Part shown: positions 618 through 56,593 of the stretch, in pieces
Numbering within the stretch: position 1 is the stretch's first letter
How the letters are laid out: every line of letters starts with the position of its first letter
Assembly: GCA_001917535.1 (NCBI GenBank)
Contig: MNEF01000087.1
Location: 1,401-65,400, forward strand
Origin: Candidatus Rokubacteria bacterium 13_1_40CM_69_27
GTDB lineage: Bacteria > Methylomirabilota > Methylomirabilia > Rokubacteriales > CSP1-6
Length of the DNA stretch: 64,000 bases
Direction of reading: 5' to 3'
The notes under the pieces: model-generated
The model's database searches: none
The model's input: the letters and a program-made list of their open reading frames with translations, nothing else
Told to the model about the DNA's origin: nothing
Program-made: the position numbers and the translations under genes

Positions 618-2273
618 TCAGCTTTCCGCGCCCGCCTGGAAGGCCCTCTGGATGACCGATTGCGCCTCCTCCTGGATCCGGCCCAGGTGGTCTCTGCCCT
701 TGAAGCTCTCCGCGTAGAGCTTGTAGACGTCCTCGGTTCCAGACGGGCGGGCGGCAAACCAGCCGCTCGGGGTGACCACCTTCAGGCCTCCGATGGGAGC
801 GCTGTTACCCGGAGCAGTCGTCAGCAGTCTCGTGATCCTCTCACCCGCGAGCTCGGAGGCTGTGACCTGCCGCGGCGAAAGCTGCGCCAAGATCGCCTTC
901 TGCTCCGGCGTGGCCGGCGCGTCGATGCGCTGGTAGGCAGGTTCGCCGAACTCGCGGGTGAGTCCTCGGTAGAGCTCACCAGGGTCGCGCCCCATGACCG
1001 CCGTCATCTCTGCGGCGAGGAGGCCGAGGATGATCCCGTCTTTGTCGGTGGTCCAGACCGTGCCGTCGCGGCGGAGGAACGAGGCCCCCGCGCTCTCCTC
1101 GCCCCCGAAGCCGAGGGAACCGCCGATGAGCCCGTCGACGAACCACTTGAACCCGACGGGCACCTCCACGAGCGGGCGCCCGAGCCGGGCGACCACACGG
1201 TCGATCATGCTGCTGCTCACGACCGTCTTGCCGATACCGGCCTCCGTCGCCCACTCCGCCCGGTGAGTGAAAAGGTAGGAGATGGCGACGGCGAGATAGG
1301 CGTTTGGGTCCAGGAGACCGACACTCCGGGCCACGACGCCGTGCCGGTCGTGGTCAGTATCGCACGCCCAGGCGACGTCGAAGCGATTCCTGAGCTCGAT
1401 CAGGCGCTGCATCGCGTAGGGCGACGAGCAGTCCATGCGGATCTTCCCGTCCCAGTCGACCGTCATGAAGCTGAAGGTCGGATCCACCACGTCGCTGATC
1501 ACGGTCAGCGGCAGCTTGTAGCGCTCGCCGATCATGCCCCAGTAGTGCACCCCGGCACCTCCCAGAGGATCGACTCCGAGCGTGACCTTCGCGGCGCGAA
1601 CGACTTCCAGGTCCACGACGCGCGTGAGGTCACCGACGTAGGCGTCCATGTAATCGTGGCGGTGGGTGGTGGGAGCGCTGCGCGCCCGCTCGAACGGGAT
1701 CCGCTTCACTCCCGTGAGACCGTCGGCGAGGAGAGCGTTCGCCTGATCCTGGATCCACCCAGTGACGTGTGTATCGGCGGGACCGCCGTTCGGCGGGTTG
1801 TACTTGAAGCCGCCGTCCTCAGGCGGGTTATGGGAGGGGGTGACGACGATCCCGTCGGCGAGGCCGCCCGCCTGGCCGCGGTTATGCGTGAGGATCGCGT
1901 GGGAGATGACCGGTGCGGGCGTATACCCTTCTCTGTCGTCGATCATCACGTCGACCCGGTTGGCCGCCAGCACCTCGAGGGCACTGGCCAACGCCGACTC
2001 CGAGAGGGCGTGGGTATCGATCCCGAGGAACAGAGGCCCGTCGATCCCCTGCTCTTGTCGGTACCTGCAAATGGCCTGGGTGATGGCGAGGATGTGGGCC
2101 TCGTTGAAGACGCTAGCGAGCGCGGAGCCGCGATGGCCCGAGGTCCCGAACGCCACCCGCTGCTCGCGGACTGATGGGTTTGGCCGCCGCGTGTAGTACG
2201 CCGTCATCAGCCGCGGGATGTTCGCCAGCATCGATGGGTCGGGGGGCTTCCCCGCACGCGGGTCCACGATCAA
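618..2273 (-). CDS. pgm: phosphoglucomutase (alpha-D-glucose phosphate-specific)
   Basis: 551 aa ORF; active-site region TSGHRGS and overall PGM/PMM family similarity (GTSGHRG, GGPADTHVTGW motifs). Confidence 0.9.
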   Translation of the reverse strand: MIVDPRAGKPPDPSMLANIPRLMTAYYTRRPNPSVREQRVAFGTSGHRGSALASVFNEAHILAITQAICRYRQEQGIDGPLFLGIDTHALSESALASALEVLAANRVDVMIDDREGYTPAPVISHAILTHNRGQAGGLADGIVVTPSHNPPEDGGFKYNPPNGGPADTHVTGWIQDQANALLADGLTGVKRIPFERARSAPTTHRHDYMDAYVGDLTRVVDLEVVRAAKVTLGVDPLGGAGVHYWGMIGERYKLPLTVISDVVDPTFSFMTVDWDGKIRMDCSSPYAMQRLIELRNRFDVAWACDTDHDRHGVVARSVGLLDPNAYLAVAISYLFTHRAEWATEAGIGKTVVSSSMIDRVVARLGRPLVEVPVGFKWFVDGLIGGSLGFGGEESAGASFLRRDGTVWTTDKDGIILGLLAAEMTAVMGRDPGELYRGLTREFGEPAYQRIDAPATPEQKAILAQLSPRQVTASELAGERITRLLTTAPGNSAPIGGLKVVTPSGWFAARPSGTEDVYKLYAESFKGRDHLGRIQEEAQSVIQRAFQAGAES

Positions 2274-2295
2274 GACCGTCTCCTTGGGGGAACCT

Positions 2296-2640
2296 TCAGC
2301 GCTCGTTGAAGCGCCAACGCTGGAAGACGTAACCGGATTCCGAGGCCGTTCGGCCCTCCGCGATCAGACAGGCGGCCCCGGCCTCGAACGCGAAAATGCG
2401 CTTCACTCCCTCATGCTCAGAGGCCTCGATATAGACGTCTGTGACTGTGACGAAGACCTCGTCCAGGATGCCGGCTCGGTGAAGAGAGTTGAGAACCATC
2501 GCTCCGCCCTCGCAGTCCACGTAACGCACGCCGAATTCGTCAAAGAGACGCTCGTGCGATCGAAAGAGCCGGTTCCAGGACGGATTCGTCTTCTGCTGCA
2601 CGGACGGCACACCGATCGATCCCGACAACTTCGCCCACCG
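2296..2640 (-). CDS. dihydrofolate reductase family (RibD C-terminal domain) protein, possibly N-terminally truncated
   Basis: C-terminal ~110 aa (GVRYVDCEGGAMVLNSLHRAGILDEVFVTVTDVYIE...RIFAFEAGA...SGYVFQRWRF) matches the RibD_C/DHFR-like fold; the upstream part of the ORF is low-complexity and does not look coding. Confidence 0.45.
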   Translation of the reverse strand, partial: RWAKLSGSIGVPSVQQKTNPSWNRLFRSHERLFDEFGVRYVDCEGGAMVLNSLHRAGILDEVFVTVTDVYIEASEHEGVKRIFAFEAGAACLIAEGRTASESGYVFQRWRFNER

Positions 2641-2921
2641 GGAGTGGGCTCGCGTGCTCCTTGCGCTCGGGCCTGCGCCGCATCCGGTTCCACGATCTCC
2701 GCCACACGTACACGAGTCTCGTGATCGCCCGGGAGGCACTCTATCATTAACTCCCCTGGCCCGCGCACTTCCAGGACTTTAAGCCGGATCCGAACGAGCG
2801 GGCCCTGACCTCAATGCCCTTCAAGGCCAGCGGGTGCCACGGATTGCGGGAGTTCCGGAGGACGGCTACTCGCGAGATACCCCCGGAACGACCTCTTTGA
2901 GCAGCTCGAGTTGTTTGGCGC

Positions 2922-42923: not shown

Positions 42924-43319
42924 TTGTCTATACTTGCCTGCCCAATGAGGACCGAGCTTCAGACCAGCGATCACAGGGTCAGCGGGCTCGTGGACGTGCT
43001 GGACCGCGTCCTCGACAAGGGGCTCGCCATCGCCGGCGACATCACGATCTCGCTGGCTGAAGTCGAGCTGCTCACCATCCGCATCCGCCTCATCATCTGC
43101 TCGATCGACAAGGCCCAGGAGATCGGCCTCGACTGGTGGAAGCACGATCGGCACCTGTCGGGCCGGCAGGACGCCGTCGAGACGCACGATCTTCAGAGGC
43201 AGCTGCGCGTGCTCGAGCGCAAGGTCGCCGCCCTCAGCACCGGGCGTGTCGCCGCGCCGGCCCGTCGCCCCGGGCGGAGAACCAAACCAGGGAACGAGGA
43301 GTCCTCGCAGGGAGGATGA
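42924..43319 (+). CDS. gvpJ: gas vesicle protein GvpJ/GvpM-like (GvpA family)
   Basis: [37 protein letters not shown] matches the GvpA/J/M hydrophobic core. Confidence 0.75.
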   Translation: MSILACPMRTELQTSDHRVSGLVDVLDRVLDKGLAIAGDITISLAEVELLTIRIRLIICSIDKAQEIGLDWWKHDRHLSGRQDAVETHDLQRQLRVLERKVAALSTGRVAAPARRPGRRTKPGNEESSQGG

Positions 43320-52090: not shown

Positions 52091-52645
52091 ATGCGAACGA
52101 CACGCGCGGTGGTTGGGGGTGCCCTGATCGGAGCCGTCCTGGCCCTGGTCCTGGCGGGCCCGGCACGGGCGCTCGAGGTGGGGCAGAAGGCGCCCGACTT
52201 CACGCTGCCCGCCCCCGGGGGGAAGCAGGTGAAGCTGGCCGATCTGCTCGGCAAGGGACCTGTCGTCATCTACACGCTGATTCAGGCCTTCACCCGCACC
52301 TGAACGGAGGAAATCAAGGGCTTCGAGGCGGCCCTGCCGCAGTTCGAGGCCCTCAACGCCCAGGTCGTGGGCGTCAGCGCGGATCACGTAGCCACGCTCG
52401 AGGCGTTCGTGAAGCAGAACGACATCAAGCAGCTCATGCTTTCCGATTTCCGTCGCCAGATGCTGCCCGCCTGGGACGCCCTGGTCACGGACGAGAAGAG
52501 CCCGATTTACCGCTACGCCAAGCGCGCCTACTTCATCCTCGACCGGAACGGGATGGTGAAGTACGTCAAGGTGATGAACAACCCGCTGGATCTCCTGAAG
52601 CCCGACGAGGTCATCAAGGCCGTCAAGGAGTCGGGCGCATCATGA
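52091..52645 (+). CDS. periplasmic peroxiredoxin (AhpC/TSA family) with in-frame TGA at the peroxidatic Cys position: candidate selenoprotein
   Basis: Signal peptide; single reading frame 52091-52645 interrupted only by TGA at 52301-52303; ...VVIYTLIQAFTRT-[TGA]-TEEIKGFEAALPQFEALNAQVVGVSAD aligns with the Prx motif ...FYPLDFTFVCPTEI... with TGA exactly at the Cys. Confidence 0.7.
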
Positions 52646-53175
52646 AGCGCGCGCTCGTCCTCGCGGTCGCCCTCGCGCTCGGCGCGGGGGCGGCCGCGGG
52701 GGGCGTTCCCGACTTCGCGAGCTTCGGGCTCCAGGCGTACGCCCCGCCCAAGCCGGCGCCGCCCTTCACGCTCGCCGACCTGGAGGGCAAGCCGCGGTCG
52801 CTGGCCGACCTCAAGGGCCAGGTCGTCCTCCTCTTCTTCTGGGCGACCTGGTGACCGGACTGCCGGGAGGAGTTGCCTTCCGTCAACAAGCTCTACGACG
52901 AGTTCAAAGGCAAGGGGCTCGAGGTCCTGCTCATCACCTTCCGTGAGGCTCCTGAGCGGGTGAGGCGGACCGTCCGGGAGCGCGGCTACACGGCGCCCGT
53001 CCTGGTCGATGAGAGCGGCGAGGTGACGGGGGTCAAGTACGGCGTGTTCGGTCCTCCGACGGTGTACATCGTCGACCGCGAGGGTCGTCTGCTCGCGCGC
53101 GGCGTGGGGCCGCGCGACTGGTCCACGCCGGCGGCCCGCGCGCTGCTCGAGGACCTCGTCCAGCCACGCCGGTAG
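52642..53175 (+). CDS. periplasmic TlpA/ResA-like thioredoxin-fold thiol:disulfide oxidoreductase with in-frame TGA replacing the first Cys of CxxC: candidate selenoprotein
   Basis: ATGA overlap with the prx stop; signal peptide; LKGQVVLLFFWATW-[TGA]-PDCREELPSVNKLYDEFKGKGLEVL aligns with ResA [23 protein letters not shown]...; the frame continues without another stop to 53175. Confidence 0.7.
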
Positions 53176-53673: not shown

Positions 53674-55320
53674 TCATTCTCCGCTGCCCTCCCCGATCCG
53701 CCCTTCGATCCGGGCGGTCACCGTTCCCTGCTCCTGGACGGCGCGACCGACCGTCTCGGCGATCAGCTCGCGCGTCGTGCCGCTGCCGTTGTCGATCATC
53801 GTGTAGCCGTCGCCGCCGCGGTAGAGGAAGTCGCTGGTGACGGCAGTGTACTCGGTCTCGTCGGGCCGGAGCGGTCGGCCGTCGAGCAGCCTCACCGCGA
53901 CGACACGGCGGCCCGGGGGTCGCCGCGGGTCGAAGCGATAGGTGAAGCCGGAGATCTGGAGAAAGCGACCGGCGGCGTTGGTGAACCGCCCGTCCTCGAC
54001 GAGGCCGTGGGACAGGCCGTTCTCGAGCGCCGCCCACAGCCCCCGTCCGCTGATCCGGAAGGTGACGGCCAGGTTGTCGAAGGGGAAGATGGCGAAGAAG
54101 TCACCCCGTACGAGGTCGTAGGGCGGGCCGGCGACGTAGCCCGGCGCCGAGCGCCGCAGCCGCCGGTCGGCGGGCTGGTATCCGGAGGGCAGATCGTCCC
54201 GCAGCGCGCCGGACACGTCGAAGGCGAGCTGGGTTCCGTACGCCGCGCGGAGCACGTCGGTCTCGAAGTTGCCGAGGGGCGACTCGCGCTCACGGGAGCG
54301 CTCCAGCACCGCCGCCGCCACCCCGACCTTCCGGTCGAACAGCGGGCGGACCTGAGCCCGGTAGCCCTCGATCATGGCTTCTACGCGCGCGTCGGGGACG
54401 ATCCGGTCGGCCCAGGGACGCTTCTGGATCGCCGATTTCTGGACGACGGCCCGGCGCGCCCGGTCGTAGACGAGATCGATCACCGCGTACTCGGCGCCCC
54501 TGGACCGGTTCTCGACGACCAGCGCACCGCCGACCACGGCGTTGACGCTCACGTCGCTGTGGTCGCCGATCAGCACGTCGACGCCGCTGATGGCACGGGC
54601 CACCTCGGCGAGCGGGCCCCGGGGGGCGCCGCCGGGCCCGACCGCAGTGGCGCCGAGGTGGGCCAGGACGACCACGATGTGCGCGCCCTCTCCGCGCAGC
54701 CTCTCTGCGTGGGCATTGATCAGCGGGACCGGATCGAGGAATCGATAGTCGCCGGTGCGGCCGGGCGCCACCAGGGCCGGCGTCTCGGGGTTGCCGACGC
54801 CGATCACCGCGACCCGGAGACCGTTCAGGATGAAGACGTGGGTGGGAGGGGTGATCGTGCGTTCGTCGGGGCCGACGATGTTGGCGGCCACGTAGCGGAA
54901 GCGGGCGAGGCTCATCAGCTTGCGGAGCCGTTGCAGACCGTGGTCGAAGCTGTGATTGCCGAGCGTGTCGATGTCGAACCCCATCGCGTTCTGCGCCTCG
55001 ACGGCGGGCACATCCTCCAGAAGGCTCGCCAGCGGGGGCGTGGCGCCGAAGGCGTCGCCGGCGGTCACCACGATCGTGCCGCCGGGGTTCTCCCGTCGCT
55101 CGCGGTCGAAGTAGGCCGCCAGGACCGCCGCGCCTGCGACCGGGCGGGGAGCGCCGTCGACGGTCACGCTCAGCGGCTCGAGCTGGGCGTGCCAGTCGCT
55201 GACGGCCACGATCGTGACCCGCCCGCTGTGACCGCCGTCACCGATGGGCCGCGCGCATGCCGCCAGCAGCGTGACGGCGACGAGACCGGCCAAGCCCCCC
55301 GCCAGCCCCCGACGGTGCAT
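53674..55320 (-). CDS. bifunctional metallophosphatase/5'-nucleotidase (UshA-like) lipoprotein
   Basis: Lipobox LLAACA; calcineurin-like metallophosphatase motifs (VSDWH, GNHSFD) and 5'-nucleotidase C-domain. Confidence 0.85.
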   Translation of the reverse strand: MHRRGLAGGLAGLVAVTLLAACARPIGDGGHSGRVTIVAVSDWHAQLEPLSVTVDGAPRPVAGAAVLAAYFDRERRENPGGTIVVTAGDAFGATPPLASLLEDVPAVEAQNAMGFDIDTLGNHSFDHGLQRLRKLMSLARFRYVAANIVGPDERTITPPTHVFILNGLRVAVIGVGNPETPALVAPGRTGDYRFLDPVPLINAHAERLRGEGAHIVVVLAHLGATAVGPGGAPRGPLAEVARAISGVDVLIGDHSDVSVNAVVGGALVVENRSRGAEYAVIDLVYDRARRAVVQKSAIQKRPWADRIVPDARVEAMIEGYRAQVRPLFDRKVGVAAAVLERSRERESPLGNFETDVLRAAYGTQLAFDVSGALRDDLPSGYQPADRRLRRSAPGYVAGPPYDLVRGDFFAIFPFDNLAVTFRISGRGLWAALENGLSHGLVEDGRFTNAAGRFLQISGFTYRFDPRRPPGRRVVAVRLLDGRPLRPDETEYTAVTSDFLYRGGDGYTMIDNGSGTTRELIAETVGRAVQEQGTVTARIEGRIGEGSGE

Positions 55321-55488: not shown

Positions 55489-55704
55489 CTACAGGCGCGG
55501 CCGGATGTCGCCGGCAAAGGCCGCCAGCACCCGCTCGACCTCCTCCAGGCTCTTCGGCAGCAGCGCGGGCGGCAGCCCGTAGACGATGTGGTCGCCCACC
55601 CACACGGAGTCGTAGCCCAGCGCTTCCGCGCGGCGGGCCAGCGCGAGCGTGCCCTCGCCGGAGGCGAGCGGGCCGAAGTGCGGGAGCTGGACGCCGAACT
55701 TCAC
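55489..55704 (-). pseudogene. N-terminal fragment of an LLM-class (luciferase-like) flavin/F420-dependent oxidoreductase
   Basis: MKFGVQLPHFGPLASGEGTLALARRAEALGYDSVWVGDHIVY is a canonical LLM N-terminus but the ORF stops after 71 aa. Confidence 0.45.
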
Positions 55705-55711
55705 GCGACGG

Positions 55712-56593
55712 TCAGGCGGGCGGAAGGAACAGCGCCCACGTCGCGCGCAGCGTCCACATCGAGAGCAGGAAGCCGCCGGCCAGCGCCAGGCTCACCCCGC
55801 TGACGACGCTCACGCGGTGCTGGAGGGCCAGGGCGTCGGTGCCGGCTCGCCCGGCGCGCCCCGCCGCGAGCGTGCCCGCCACCGCCAGCGGCACCATGAG
55901 CCCGAGGCCGTACGCCATCAGCGTGACGGCGCCGAGCCAGGCGCTCTGCTGCGCCGCCACCCAGCCGATGACGAGCGCGTAGGCCGACAGCGGGCTGAAG
56001 ATCGCCATCGTCGCGCCGAACCCGAGCGCGATCGCCAGCGCCCGCCGCGTCAGACTGCCGGTGGGAGCTCCTTCCGCCGGGGCCGTGGTCAGGCGGGGGA
56101 GCAGCGGGCGCGCCAGCCCCAGCTCGCCGAGCGCGATCGCCAGCGCCAGCAGGCCCAGCCCCGAGAGGGTAACGGAGGCGATCGCTTCGCGCGCCCAGGG
56201 CGTCGTCACCTTGGCGGCCATGGCGGAGCCCGCCCAGGCCATCGCCGCGCCGAACACGCCCAGCACCGCCAGCAGGGCGCCCGTGAACAGACCGAGCACC
56301 GCCATCCACCGCCGTCTCGTCTTCGCCTCCTGAACCAGGGGCGCGATCGTGAAGATCATCGGCGTCCATCAGGGGACGCAGATGCGCGGCACCCCCATGA
56401 CGAAGGCGAGCAGCACGGCGGTCGACGCGCCCACCAGCGGCGCGCCCGGATCGGTGAAGAGCGCGATGAACCCTTTGTACATGCCGCTGAACATGGGCCA
56501 GTTCCAGGCGTAGCCCAGTAGCCCGCCCGTCAGCGTGGCGACCACGAACAACGTCAGACGAGAACGCATGGGAGCCTCCCTGAAGGGCAGCAT
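55712..56593 (-). CDS. ccdA: CcdA/DsbD-family transmembrane thiol-disulfide electron transporter with in-frame TGA in TM1 (C-V-P-[TGA]): candidate selenoprotein
   Basis: Two ORF-track pieces (55712-56359 and 56369-56593) are in the same frame, separated only by TGA at 56369-56371; ...AVLLAFVMGVPRICVP-[TGA]-WTPMIFTIAPLV... resembles the CcdA TM1 motif LSPCVLPL. Confidence 0.6.

What the first reader, a model, noticed from the sequence alone, without database searches (positions are those of the whole stretch)
55712..56593. CcdA/DsbD-family membrane protein with in-frame TGA giving a C-V-P-U motif in TM1 and no TM4 cysteine
The two ORF pieces are co-frame and separated by a single TGA. The only Cys of the protein lies 3 residues before the TGA, inside the first transmembrane helix where CcdA normally carries its redox Cys. 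The usual second Cys in TM4 appears absent, so a C/U pair within TM1 may replace the canonical TM1/TM4 pair.
Basis: partly seen in the sequence, partly recalled or inferred. Interest (0 to 1): 0.7.

Follow-up and report, generated by a model that had tools for sequence, protein, structure and literature searches.

The report
Selenocysteine-containing CcdA-like membrane redox protein
The "stop" codon inside this gene almost certainly encodes selenocysteine at the active site of a CcdA-like membrane protein, a selenoprotein family I could not find in current catalogues. It lies in a gene cluster with two exported selenoproteins and probably carries reducing power across the membrane to them.

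Summary
On the minus strand one reading frame runs from ATG 56569 to stop 55712. A single TGA (56371-56369) interrupts it, giving C64-V-P-U67.

The TGA is conserved in every related locus: 23 retrieved through protein similarity and 46 from a DNA-pattern scan that left the third codon base free. Sixteen distant full-length homologues all carry Cys at that column.

Profile alignment to Thermus CcdA (PDB 5VKV) puts U67 on the TM1 active-site Cys (PCxxP becomes PUxxP). The TM4 Cys column is Ser192. Synonymous divergence falls from about 0.4 to 0.07-0.12 just after the TGA. A hairpin with a G-U loop 33 nt downstream meets the published bacterial SECIS criteria and shows compensatory changes.

The window holds two more selenoprotein-type genes 3-4 kb away: a signal-peptide peroxiredoxin (TxxU) and a TlpA/ResA-like thioredoxin (UxxC). 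This cluster recurs in Rokubacteria. In other phyla the gene follows MauE, a CxxC redoxin and a Cys-rich Tat-signal protein.

Most likely it is a selenium-based transmembrane reductant relay. Sec is well supported; the function is inferred. The family is absent from a May 2026 catalogue of 119 selenoprotein families and from NCBIfam 20.0. GenBank annotates two hypothetical proteins.

The parts
55712..56569 (-). Full CcdA-like selenoprotein gene (285 codons including Sec67; stop TGA 55714-55712). It has an N-terminal extra helix plus a six-helix DsbD_TM core.
   Evidence: The Pfam DsbD_TM match spans the TGA, and the MR.R start is conserved in all Rokubacteria loci.
56575..56580 (-). Shine-Dalgarno-like GGGAGG, 5 nt upstream of ATG 56569.
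   Evidence: Read directly.
56369..56371 (-). In-frame TGA, read as selenocysteine (U67). It aligns with the TM1 active-site Cys of CcdA (PCxxP becomes PUWTP).
56378..56380 (-). TGC for Cys64, the only Cys. It lies three residues before Sec (C-V-P-U) and is the candidate resolving partner.
   Evidence: Of 46 metagenome relatives, 40 have C-x-x-U.
56324..56343 (-). Hairpin H3, the bSECIS candidate: CGCCCCUG-GUU-CAGG(A)GGCG. The loop starts 33 nt after the UGA, and the hairpin energy is -12.0 kcal/mol.
   Evidence: Five of 8 pairs carry compensatory changes across 14 diverse loci. Criteria are from PMC13188914.
56345..56357 (-). Hairpin H2 (GAUC-UUCAC-GAUC), which includes the invariant AUG. It is present in all lineages, in a different register in the MVGTI-type genes.
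56362..56379 (-). Hairpin H1 (GCGUCC-CCUGAU-GGACGC), which holds the UGA in its loop. Its role is unknown.
   Evidence: Two pairs differ by compensatory changes between Rokubacteria and Anaerolineae.
55993..56004 (-). F-S-P-L in TM4. Ser192 sits where CcdA and all Cys-form homologues have the second active-site Cys.
53674..55320 (-). UshA-like 5'-nucleotidase-family lipoprotein (548 aa), immediately downstream and conserved in synteny. Its only Cys is in the lipobox.
52642..53175 (+). TlpA/ResA-like exported thioredoxin-fold gene with in-frame TGA 52852-52854 (FWATW-U-PDC, UxxC). Its start overlaps the prx stop (ATGA).
52091..52645 (+). Signal-peptide peroxiredoxin (AhpC-TSA, BCP-like) with in-frame TGA 52301-52303 (AFTRT-U, TxxU).

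Best explanation
Window 56569..55712 (minus strand) is one gene. It encodes a 285-residue integral membrane selenoprotein of the CcdA/DsbD_TM superfamily in a Rokubacteria (Methylomirabilota) genome.

Shown or strongly supported:
- UGA 56371-56369 is decoded as selenocysteine, directed by a stem-loop (H3, 56343-56324) inside the coding sequence.
- Sec67 occupies the position of the TM1 active-site Cys of CcdA.
- The TM4 partner Cys has been lost (Ser192), and a Cys has appeared one helical turn upstream (C64-V-P-U67).

Inferred mechanism:
- The protein works like CcdA. It accepts reducing equivalents from a cytoplasmic thioredoxin-type donor and exposes its redox centre alternately to each side of the membrane.
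- It passes the electrons to an exported TlpA/ResA-like thioredoxin, here itself a UxxC selenoprotein.
- That thioredoxin in turn reduces an exported TxxU selenoperoxiredoxin.
- The redox couple would be an intrahelical C64-U67 selenenylsulfide rather than the TM1-TM4 disulfide.

The outcome would be an all-selenium peroxide-reduction chain in the cell envelope, analogous to ScsB to TlpA to PprX in Caulobacter.
For: Sec decoding:
- The TGA is conserved in all 23 protein-retrieved loci from Methylomirabilota, Chloroflexota (Anaerolineae) and unassigned metagenome lineages.
- It is also present in 46 of 46 genuine pattern hits.
- Sixteen of 16 full-length homologues have Cys at that column.
- Of 99 close database homologues, 91 were called from the Met just after the TGA.
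- Synonymous divergence drops to 0.07-0.12 in codons +2 to +17, against 0.37 gene-wide.
- H3 has a G-U loop 33 nt from the UGA and an energy of -12 kcal/mol, so it fits all four published bSECIS criteria.
- In H3, 5 of 8 pairs show compensatory changes and 84% of cells are paired, against 31-52% in slid controls. The covariation score of 0.248 exceeds all 500 shuffles. Cys-forms form only 3-6 of the 8 pairs.
- TGA is also the gene's own stop codon, so the codon is not globally reassigned.
- Two more in-frame TGAs sit at catalytic Cys positions in the same window.
- Published work reports Sec use in Methylomirabilota and Chloroflexota.

Family:
- Pfam DsbD_TM scores above its cut-off.
- A family profile hits CcdA 5VKV, with U on SPCVLP and Ser192 on the TM4 Cys.
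- The AlphaFold model of a Cys-form has helix breaks at both Cys positions. Its only confident Foldseek match is 5VKV.

Function:
- The prx(Sec)-tlpA(Sec) operon lies convergent with the gene in the window and in L002, L005, L006, L008 and L009 (degraded in L007).
- All 7 of 7 CVP-type metagenome loci with at least 2.9 kb downstream carry it.
- In Anaerolineae and in L018, L019, L022 and L023 the gene ends an operon of MauE, a membrane-anchored CxxC redoxin and a Cys-rich Tat-signal protein.
- In L016 a small UxxC thioredoxin-like ORF follows it.
- Precedent: PMC3322552.
Against: - There is no direct evidence of selenium incorporation or of electron transfer.
- selA, selB, selC and selD could not be looked for.
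- H3 lies near the far end of the allowed UGA-to-loop spacing. Whole-region folding energy is no better than shuffled sequence (z = -0.3). The Anaerolineae H3 is marginal at -7.4 kcal/mol.
- Relatives with no Cys at -3 and none in TM4 exist, including L018 with no Cys at all, yet they keep the MauE/redoxin context. So a C-U pair is not required family-wide, and a lone Sec cannot by itself carry two electrons.
- L003 has Ser in place of Cys64.
- Full-length Cys-forms sit beside CopZ-like HMA proteins and CsoR or MerR regulators. That points equally to metal handling.
- The always-adjacent UshA-like lipoprotein has no Cys apart from its lipobox, so it is not an obvious redox client.
Confidence: 0.6

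Rival explanations
1. It is a genuine selenoprotein, but its job is to bind or move a thiophilic metal or metalloid (Cu, Hg, possibly Se species) across the membrane. C-x-x-U would be the coordination site, as proposed for MerT-type C/SxxU selenoproteins. It would not relay electrons.
For: Three of four independent Cys-form loci place the gene next to a small HMA (CopZ-like) protein: CsoR-HMA-gene-CopA-like in L024, MerR-HMA-gene in L025/L026, and gene-HMA in L028. The position at -3 varies between Cys, Ser and other residues, as in the catalogued MerT-like C/SxxU family. Lone-Sec relatives cannot form an internal redox pair. The partner of the MauE/redoxin operons is a Cys-rich Tat-signal protein that could bind metal.
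Against: Every Sec-form context contains a TlpA/MauD-type thioredoxin-fold protein and none contains HMA, MerR or CsoR. Copper-regulated DsbD-type reductant transporters are known (Scs system), so a copper context does not imply metal transport. The fold and both active-site positions match an electron transporter. There is no Pfam match to MerT.
Confidence: 0.2
2. The UGA terminates translation, and the conserved AUG nine bases later restarts it. The cell then makes two polypeptides (66 aa and 215 aa) that assemble as a split membrane protein, with no selenium involved.
For: UGA-N9-AUG spacing is invariant in every locus. Public annotations call two genes. The Met at this position is not conserved in Cys-forms.
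Against: The stop falls exactly on the catalytic Cys codon of the family, and splitting there would delete the active-site residue. No Shine-Dalgarno sequence precedes the AUG. A SECIS-like covarying hairpin follows. Two neighbouring genes show the same phenomenon at their catalytic Cys. The AUG invariance is partly an ascertainment effect, because peptide patterns, gene callers and my DNA pattern all required it.
Confidence: 0.04
3. UGA is read through as a standard amino acid (Cys, Trp or Gly) by a suppressor or non-canonical tRNA rather than as Sec.
For: SelB-dependent Cys insertion at UGA has been described in some bacteria (a reference cited within PMC13582414). Selenium was not measured.
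Against: TGA serves as an ordinary stop in the same genes and genomes. In-frame TGAs are confined to redox Cys positions. A SECIS-type structure is conserved.
Confidence: 0.03
4. It is a pseudogene or a sequencing or assembly error.
For: A decayed gene remnant lies directly downstream (55489-55704).
Against: The same TGA appears in about 70 independent assemblies. Both flanks are under purifying selection, with no frameshifts.
Confidence: 0.01

Closest known systems
CcdA (cytochrome c biogenesis / membrane electron transporter; Pfam DsbD_TM PF02683; structure 5VKV)
   Same: Homologous six-helix core. PF02683 scores above its cut-off, and a family profile matches 5VKV at E 7e-5. The active-site position in TM1 lies within P-x-x-x-P. 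The gene neighbours exported TlpA/ResA-type thioredoxins, the classic CcdA clients.
   Different: Sec replaces Cys in TM1. The second active-site Cys in TM4 is replaced by Ser, and a new Cys sits at -3 in the same helix. There is an extra N-terminal transmembrane helix. The sequence is very divergent: phmmer with the single sequence finds nothing in the PDB, and only 76 clusters among 1.84 billion representatives match.
ScsB -> TlpA -> PprX envelope peroxide-reduction pathway of Caulobacter crescentus (PMC3322552)
   Same: A DsbD-superfamily membrane transporter, a TlpA-like thioredoxin and an exported peroxiredoxin form one pathway. The same three protein types are clustered here.
   Different: Here all three carry Sec at the catalytic position. 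The transporter is a minimal CcdA-like protein without the periplasmic domains of ScsB. The pathway is inferred from synteny only.
TsoB, rhodanese/DsbD fusion-like selenoprotein (NCBIfam NF045694; Haft and Tolstoy 2025, as listed in PMC13188914)
   Same: A predicted selenoprotein with a DsbD-related membrane part.
   Different: TsoB has two Sec in a UxxxxU motif and a rhodanese fusion. The protein here gave no NCBIfam match to NF045694 at E <= 1. I could not read the primary paper.
MerT-like putative mercuric transport selenoprotein (PF02411, C/SxxU)
   Same: A small integral membrane protein with a C/S-x-x-U motif in a transmembrane helix. The residue at -3 can be Cys or Ser, as seen here in L003 and other relatives.
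   Different: It is a different fold and family, with no PF02411 match. The Sec-form contexts here are thioredoxin-type, not mer-type.
SoxV/SoxW (CcdA-like transporter plus periplasmic thioredoxin in sulfur-oxidation clusters). This comparison is from my own knowledge and was not checked here.
   Same: A CcdA paralogue dedicated to one periplasmic thioredoxin, encoded near a hydrolase of the 5'-nucleotidase family (SoxB). The neighbour here is UshA-like and gives a weak SoxB hit (E 7e-24, far below cut-off).
   Different: No SoxY, SoxZ, SoxA or SoxX was seen. The hydrolase scores best as a nucleotidase. This is a lead only.

Membership tests
CcdA / DsbD_TM (PF02683) | Sequence match to the DsbD_TM profile above the curated cut-off | tested here: met
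   The fused protein scores 30.9-31.1 bits against a cut-off of 27.1, spanning the TGA. The C-terminal piece alone scores 22.7 bits, below the cut-off.
CcdA / DsbD_TM (PF02683) | Six-helix core with discontinuous TM1 and TM4, CcdA fold | tested here: inconclusive
   Hydropathy gives an N-terminal helix plus six helices. The AlphaFold model of the Cys-form relative P0109 (pLDDT 82.5) has helix breaks at both Cys positions. Its top Foldseek hit is 5VKV at probability 0.98, but with TM-score only 0.31-0.38.
CcdA / DsbD_TM (PF02683) | Redox-active Cys in TM1 (P-C-x-x-P) | tested here: met
   The column is occupied by Sec (P-U-W-T-P). It is Cys in 16 of 16 full-length homologues and in 5VKV. The feature is met only in the sense of a chalcogen at the same position.
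CcdA / DsbD_TM (PF02683) | Second redox-active Cys in TM4 | tested here: not met
   The residue is Ser192 (A-I-F-S-P-L) in the window and in 97 of 99 close homologues. The protein is therefore a superfamily homologue, not a canonical CcdA.
CcdA / DsbD_TM (PF02683) | Transfers electrons from cytoplasmic thioredoxin to an exported thioredoxin-like protein | not testable with these tools
   Only synteny with TlpA/ResA-like and MauD-like genes is available.
Bacterial selenoprotein gene | In-frame UGA conserved among orthologues, with Cys at the same position in homologues | tested here: met
Bacterial selenoprotein gene | bSECIS: loop of 3-9 nt with G in its first two positions, stem of 4-16 bp, 16-37 nt from the UGA, energy <= -7.5 kcal/mol (PMC13188914) | tested here: met
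   H3 has loop GUU, 8 bp with one bulged A, 33 nt spacing and -12.0 kcal/mol. Covariation supports it. The Anaerolineae version is marginal at -7.4 kcal/mol.
Bacterial selenoprotein gene | selA, selB, selC (tRNA-Sec) and selD present in the genome | not testable with these tools
   None is in the 64-kb window. Indirect support comes from two further Sec-type genes in the window and from published Sec use in the phylum.
Bacterial selenoprotein gene | Selenium actually incorporated | not testable with these tools
   This needs 75Se labelling or mass spectrometry.
TsoB (NF045694) | Match to the NCBIfam model; UxxxxU motif; rhodanese fusion | tested here: not met
   There is no NF045694 hit at E <= 1. 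The protein has a single Sec in CxxU and no rhodanese domain.
MerT-like selenoprotein (PF02411) | Match to the MerT profile | tested here: not met
   No PF02411 hit at E <= 1 for the window protein or at E <= 0.01 for 23 family members.

The most novel reading that the evidence does not exclude
Transmembrane reductant transfer here would not use the two-helix TM1-TM4 disulfide that defines CcdA/DsbD. It would use a selenium centre confined to one helix: a C-x-x-U selenenylsulfide, or in some relatives a lone Sec with no Cys in the protein. That would be a mechanistically distinct way of moving redox equivalents across a membrane. It would feed an envelope pathway in which transporter, thioredoxin and peroxiredoxin are all selenoproteins.
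Probability: 0.3. Interest if true: 0.85.

Novelty: new variant of a known kind. Interest (0 to 1): 0.68.

Why it matters
CcdA/DsbD proteins are the standard example of how bacteria move reducing power across the cytoplasmic membrane. Their mechanism is built around one Cys in TM1 and one in TM4.

This family keeps the fold but puts selenocysteine at the TM1 site, discards the TM4 Cys and sometimes discards all Cys. That gives a natural test of what is minimally needed for the relay.

It also adds a family to the selenoproteome that I did not find in the May 2026 catalogue of 119 families or in NCBIfam 20.0. Public records annotate it as two hypothetical proteins, so it is systematically mis-annotated in soil and groundwater MAGs.

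The clustering with Sec-TlpA and Sec-peroxiredoxin genes suggests a complete selenium-based antioxidant chain in the cell envelope of Rokubacteria, a phylum reported to have very large selenoproteomes.

Tried and rejected
I used the C-terminal pieces and Cys-form homologues instead.
- phmmer of the single fused protein against the PDB found nothing; only the family profile reached CcdA.
- Rfam and ARAGORN found only a tRNA-Gly, with no tRNA-Sec or known RNA family at the site.
- tblastn with E. coli SelD recalled from memory found nothing in the window. This is uninformative for a 64-kb window.
- Folding energy of the whole post-UGA region is no better than shuffled sequence. The case for the SECIS rests on position, loop identity and covariation.
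- H2 was considered as the SECIS. [quoted passage not shown] It would fit in the MVGTI-type genes.
- The fourth in-frame TGA candidate, at 43317, looks like a gene end followed by a gene start.
- The promoter and terminator scan around the cluster gave nothing useful.
- The Haft and Tolstoy 2025 paper (TsoB) and Deng et al. 2026 (63 selenoproteins in a Methylomirabilota MAG) are not held. I cannot exclude that either mentions this family.
- Literature searches for selenoprotein with CcdA, DsbD, PF02683 or cytochrome c biogenesis gave no description of such a protein.
Full report
**1. The observation**

On the minus strand an ORF of 74 codons (56593..56372) ends at TGA 56371-56369. Nine bases later (TGG ACG CCG) an ATG at 56359 opens a 215-codon ORF in the same frame, ending at TGA 55714-55712. 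Read through, the junction is ...GVPRIC-V-P-U-W-T-P-MIFTIAPLVQEAK... The fused protein has one Cys, at -3 from the TGA.

The fused protein matches Pfam DsbD_TM above the gathering score, and the match spans the TGA (30.9 bits against 27.1; residues 59-252). The downstream piece alone falls below the cut-off at 22.7 bits.

The probable start is ATG 56569 (MRSRL...). GGGAGG lies 5 nt upstream. This start aligns with the start of all nine other Rokubacteria loci. The 66-aa product from it is the one present in public protein collections. Numbered from that start the protein is 285 residues, with C64, U67 and S192.

The exact C-terminal piece is GenBank OLC14002.1. The N-terminal piece is OLC14003.1, called there as 60 aa. 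Both come from Candidatus Rokubacteria bacterium 13_1_40CM_69_27 and are annotated as separate hypothetical proteins.

**2. Is the TGA conserved, and is Cys found there in relatives?**

All 99 homologues found in 5.8 billion protein clusters cover only the C-terminal 73% of the query. Of these, 91 start at the Met that follows the TGA (MIF.I). I then looked at the DNA of 23 related loci:
- nine Methylomirabilota/Rokubacteria genomes;
- six Anaerolineae genomes, including Ca. Amarolinea;
- eight metagenome contigs from more distant lineages.

In every one an in-frame TGA is followed by nine bases and ATG, and the upstream frame is open and conserved at the protein level.

A metagenome scan used a DNA pattern that left the third base of the codon free (TGN). 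It gave 47 hits: one was a chance match, and the other 46 all had TGA. None had TGC or TGT.

A profile search of 1.84 billion representative proteins found only 76 clusters. Among them are full-length forms of about 290-300 aa. In the alignment all 16 of these have Cys at the TGA column (..PC.xP..) and, apart from rare truncated sequences, a second Cys in a G-C-P-x-P-T-Y motif.

A profile of the family matches Thermus thermophilus CcdA (PDB 5VKV, E 7e-5). That alignment places the TGA column on the TM1 active-site Cys (SPCVLP) and the G-C-P motif on the TM4 active-site Cys.

In the window protein the TM4 column is Ser (A-I-F-S-P-L). This holds in 97 of 99 close homologues. The column is Leu in Anaerolineae and Val in L017.

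Sec itself occupies the canonical position, and the Cys at -3 is the novelty.

**3. RNA evidence for recoding**

Among the ten Rokubacteria sequences, synonymous differences fall from 0.37 gene-wide (0.4-0.5 over most of the gene) to 0.07-0.12 in the windows covering codons +2 to +17 after the TGA. Three hairpins are predicted by RNAalifold and by eye.

H3 (56343-56324) reads CGCCCCUG-GUU-CAGG(A)GGCG:
- Its energy is -12.0 kcal/mol.
- Its 3-nt loop begins with G-U.
- The loop starts 33 nt after the UGA.

It therefore meets all four criteria of the published bacterial SECIS model. The equivalent hairpin sits at the same codons in every lineage, with different sequences (for example CCCUGUG-GUC-UACAGGG in L021).

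On 14 diverse sequences:
- 5 of 8 pairs carry double (compensatory) changes.
- 84% of cells are paired, against 31-52% when the partner strand is slid.
- The covariation score of 0.248 exceeds all 500 column shuffles (mean 0.126).

Four Cys-form genes form only 3-6 of the 8 pairs, and their minimum-energy folds do not show this hairpin.

Caveats: whole-region folding energy is not better than shuffled sequence, and the Anaerolineae hairpin is marginal at -7.4 kcal/mol.

**4. Other selenoprotein-type genes in the window**

A scan for co-frame ORF pairs split by one TGA, with coding-like GC3 on both sides, found four sites in 64 kb. One (43317) looks like a gene boundary. The other three are this gene and two plus-strand genes.

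- 52091-52645 encodes a signal-peptide peroxiredoxin (AhpC-TSA, E 6e-29) with ...AFTRT-U-TEEI (TxxU).
- 52642-53175 overlaps the prx stop by ATGA. It encodes a signal-peptide TlpA/ResA-like thioredoxin-fold protein (E 3e-27 to ResA) with ...FWATW-U-PDC (UxxC).

Both TGAs are conserved in L002, L005, L006, L008 and L009.

TGA also terminates ordinary genes here, including this one. The codon is therefore not reassigned; it is recoded at specific redox sites.

The window holds no tRNA-Sec or sel genes, which says little for 64 kb. Published work reports a Methylomirabilota MAG with 63 predicted selenoprotein genes, and Sec-type hydrogenases in Methylomirabilota and Chloroflexota.

**5. Gene context and function**

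In Rokubacteria the arrangement is ccdA-like(Sec), then a UshA-like lipoprotein, then the convergent tlpA(Sec) and prx(Sec).
- It is seen in the window, L002, L005, L008 and L009.
- L006 and L007 lack the UshA-like gene.
- All 7 of 7 CVP-type metagenome loci with at least 2.9 kb downstream have it.

In the window a 71-aa remnant of a luciferase-like oxidoreductase lies between ccdA-like and ushA-like.

In Anaerolineae and in four other lineages (L018, L019, L022, L023) the gene is last in an operon:
- MauE (E 3e-32);
- a membrane-anchored AhpC-TSA/redoxin with a CxxC motif (MauD/TlpA-like);
- a protein of about 150 aa with a twin-arginine signal and some 20 Cys.

L017 keeps remnants of this operon. 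In L016 a small MJ0307-type thioredoxin-like ORF with its own U-x-x-C follows the gene.

So every Sec-form sits beside a thioredoxin-fold protein of the kind CcdA normally reduces. The Rokubacteria trio mirrors the ScsB to TlpA to PprX peroxide-reduction pathway of Caulobacter.

I therefore favour a CcdA-type transmembrane reductant relay. In the window protein C64-U67 would form the redox couple as a selenenylsulfide within one helix. These steps are inferred, not shown.

**6. What does not fit neatly**

The Sec-forms are heterogeneous:
- C-x-x-U with no TM4 Cys: Rokubacteria, Anaerolineae, L020 and L023, and 40 of 46 metagenome hits.
- U with the TM4 Cys retained and no Cys at -3: L016.
- U with neither: L017, L018, L019, L021 and L022, and 6 of 46 metagenome hits.

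The L018 protein has no Cys at all. L003 has Ser in place of C64. A lone Sec cannot hold two electrons. Those forms must use a partner in trans, a dimer, or a different chemistry.

Three of four independent Cys-form loci neighbour a CopZ-like HMA protein with a CsoR or MerR regulator, and one also a CopA-like gene. This supports a rival metal-handling role. It echoes the catalogued MerT-like C/SxxU selenoproteins. Copper-regulated DsbD-type reductant transporters (Scs) are also known, however.

The UshA-like lipoprotein that always follows the Rokubacteria gene has no Cys apart from its lipobox. Its role is unexplained.

**7. Structure**

The tools would not accept the fused sequence. An AlphaFold model of the Cys-form P0109 (pLDDT 82.5, pTM 0.78) has an N-terminal helix plus the core. 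It shows helix breaks exactly at the TM1 and TM4 Cys. Foldseek against the PDB gives CcdA 5VKV as the only confident match, at probability 0.98 but with TM-score only 0.31-0.38. This supports the fold assignment modestly.

**8. Comparison with what is known, and novelty**

The protein is a homologue in the CcdA/DsbD_TM superfamily. It fails one defining feature of CcdA, the TM4 Cys, so I describe it as CcdA-like rather than as a CcdA.

A May 2026 review tabulates 119 prokaryotic selenoprotein families. None is a CcdA/DsbD_TM protein. The nearest entries are TsoB (rhodanese/DsbD fusion-like, UxxxxU), MerT-like (C/SxxU) and a Cu/Zn efflux transporter. NCBIfam 20.0 gives no specific hit. Full-text searches found no description. 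Two potentially relevant papers could not be read.

I rate it a new variant of a known kind: a Cys-to-Sec selenoprotein version of a known transporter family, with a rearranged active site.

**9. Verdict**

- The in-frame TGA is real and conserved.
- It very probably encodes Sec (my estimate about 0.9).
- The relay function is the best-supported reading (about 0.6).
- Metal handling is the main rival (about 0.2).
- Interest: 0.68.

Noticed in passing
window 52091-52645 (+) and 52642-53175 (+): Two further selenoprotein-type genes lie here: a signal-peptide peroxiredoxin with in-frame TGA 52301-52303 (TxxU) and a TlpA/ResA-like thioredoxin with in-frame TGA 52852-52854 (UxxC). They are translationally coupled (ATGA overlap). 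Both TGAs are conserved in related loci.
   Followed up: yes
window 53674-55320 (-): A UshA-like 5'-nucleotidase-family lipoprotein lies directly downstream of the CcdA-like gene in most Rokubacteria loci. Its only Cys is in the lipobox. It gives weak NCBIfam hits to SoxB and to the UshA-like selenoprotein family, both far below cut-off. Its link to the redox genes is unexplained.
   Followed up: partly
window 55489-55704 (-): A 71-aa ORF joins the first ~45 residues of a luciferase-like (LLM) oxidoreductase to a short C-terminal tail. It looks like a deletion remnant inserted between the CcdA-like and UshA-like genes. It is absent at this position in L005 and L008.
   Followed up: partly
window 56362-56379 (-): A hairpin (GCGUCC/GGACGC) holds the UGA in its loop. 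Anaerolineae have ACCCC/GGGGU at the same place, with two compensatory pairs. L018, L021 and L022 have 5-7 bp hairpins around the UGA in shifted registers. Part of the pairing follows from Pro-Sec-Gly/Trp codons. The function, if any, is unknown.
   Followed up: partly
window 56345-56359 (-): The fourth codon after the UGA is AUG in every Sec-form, whereas Cys-forms have M, A, V, L or I there. It lies in a second small hairpin (H2) whose register differs between MIF-type and MVGTI-type genes. The invariance is partly an ascertainment effect of gene callers and of my search patterns. It could also permit re-initiation.
   Followed up: partly
L010-L015; L018, L019, L022, L023 (e.g. L011 7955-10620): A conserved operon runs MauE, then a membrane-anchored CxxC redoxin (MauD/TlpA-like), then a Cys-rich protein of about 150 aa with a twin-arginine signal and no Pfam or NCBIfam match, then the CcdA-like Sec gene.
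   Followed up: partly
L017 about 2250-2790 (+): The Cys-rich Tat-signal ORF upstream of the CcdA-like gene has its own in-frame TGA (GVEPGCGN*QYCGICGN). It may be another selenoprotein. The redoxin gene upstream is truncated next to a transposase.
   Followed up: no
L016 3682-3933 (+): A small MJ0307/Thioredoxin_3-like ORF lies directly after the CcdA-like gene and has an in-frame TGA (STPE*ESC, UxxC). In this locus the CcdA-like protein has Sec in TM1 and keeps the TM4 Cys.
   Followed up: partly
L024, L025/L026, L028: Full-length Cys-forms of the family lie beside CopZ-like HMA proteins, with a CsoR-type or MerR-type regulator. In L024 the start of a CopA-like ATPase follows.
   Followed up: partly
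L003 (match at 2385) and L007 10650-11184: L003 has AGC (Ser) instead of TGC at the -3 position (RISVP*WTP). In L007 the Prx and TlpA genes appear partly deleted and fused.
   Followed up: no
window 43317 (+): A fourth co-frame ORF pair is split by a TGA (..SSQGG*PMPVERT..). It looks like one gene ending and the next starting in the same frame, not like recoding.
   Followed up: no
P0098, P0099 (database proteins): Two longer database homologues (245 and 334 aa) are read-through or frameshift chimeras. They run from the CcdA-like piece into the neighbouring UshA-like gene region and are not Cys-containing full-length forms.
   Followed up: partly
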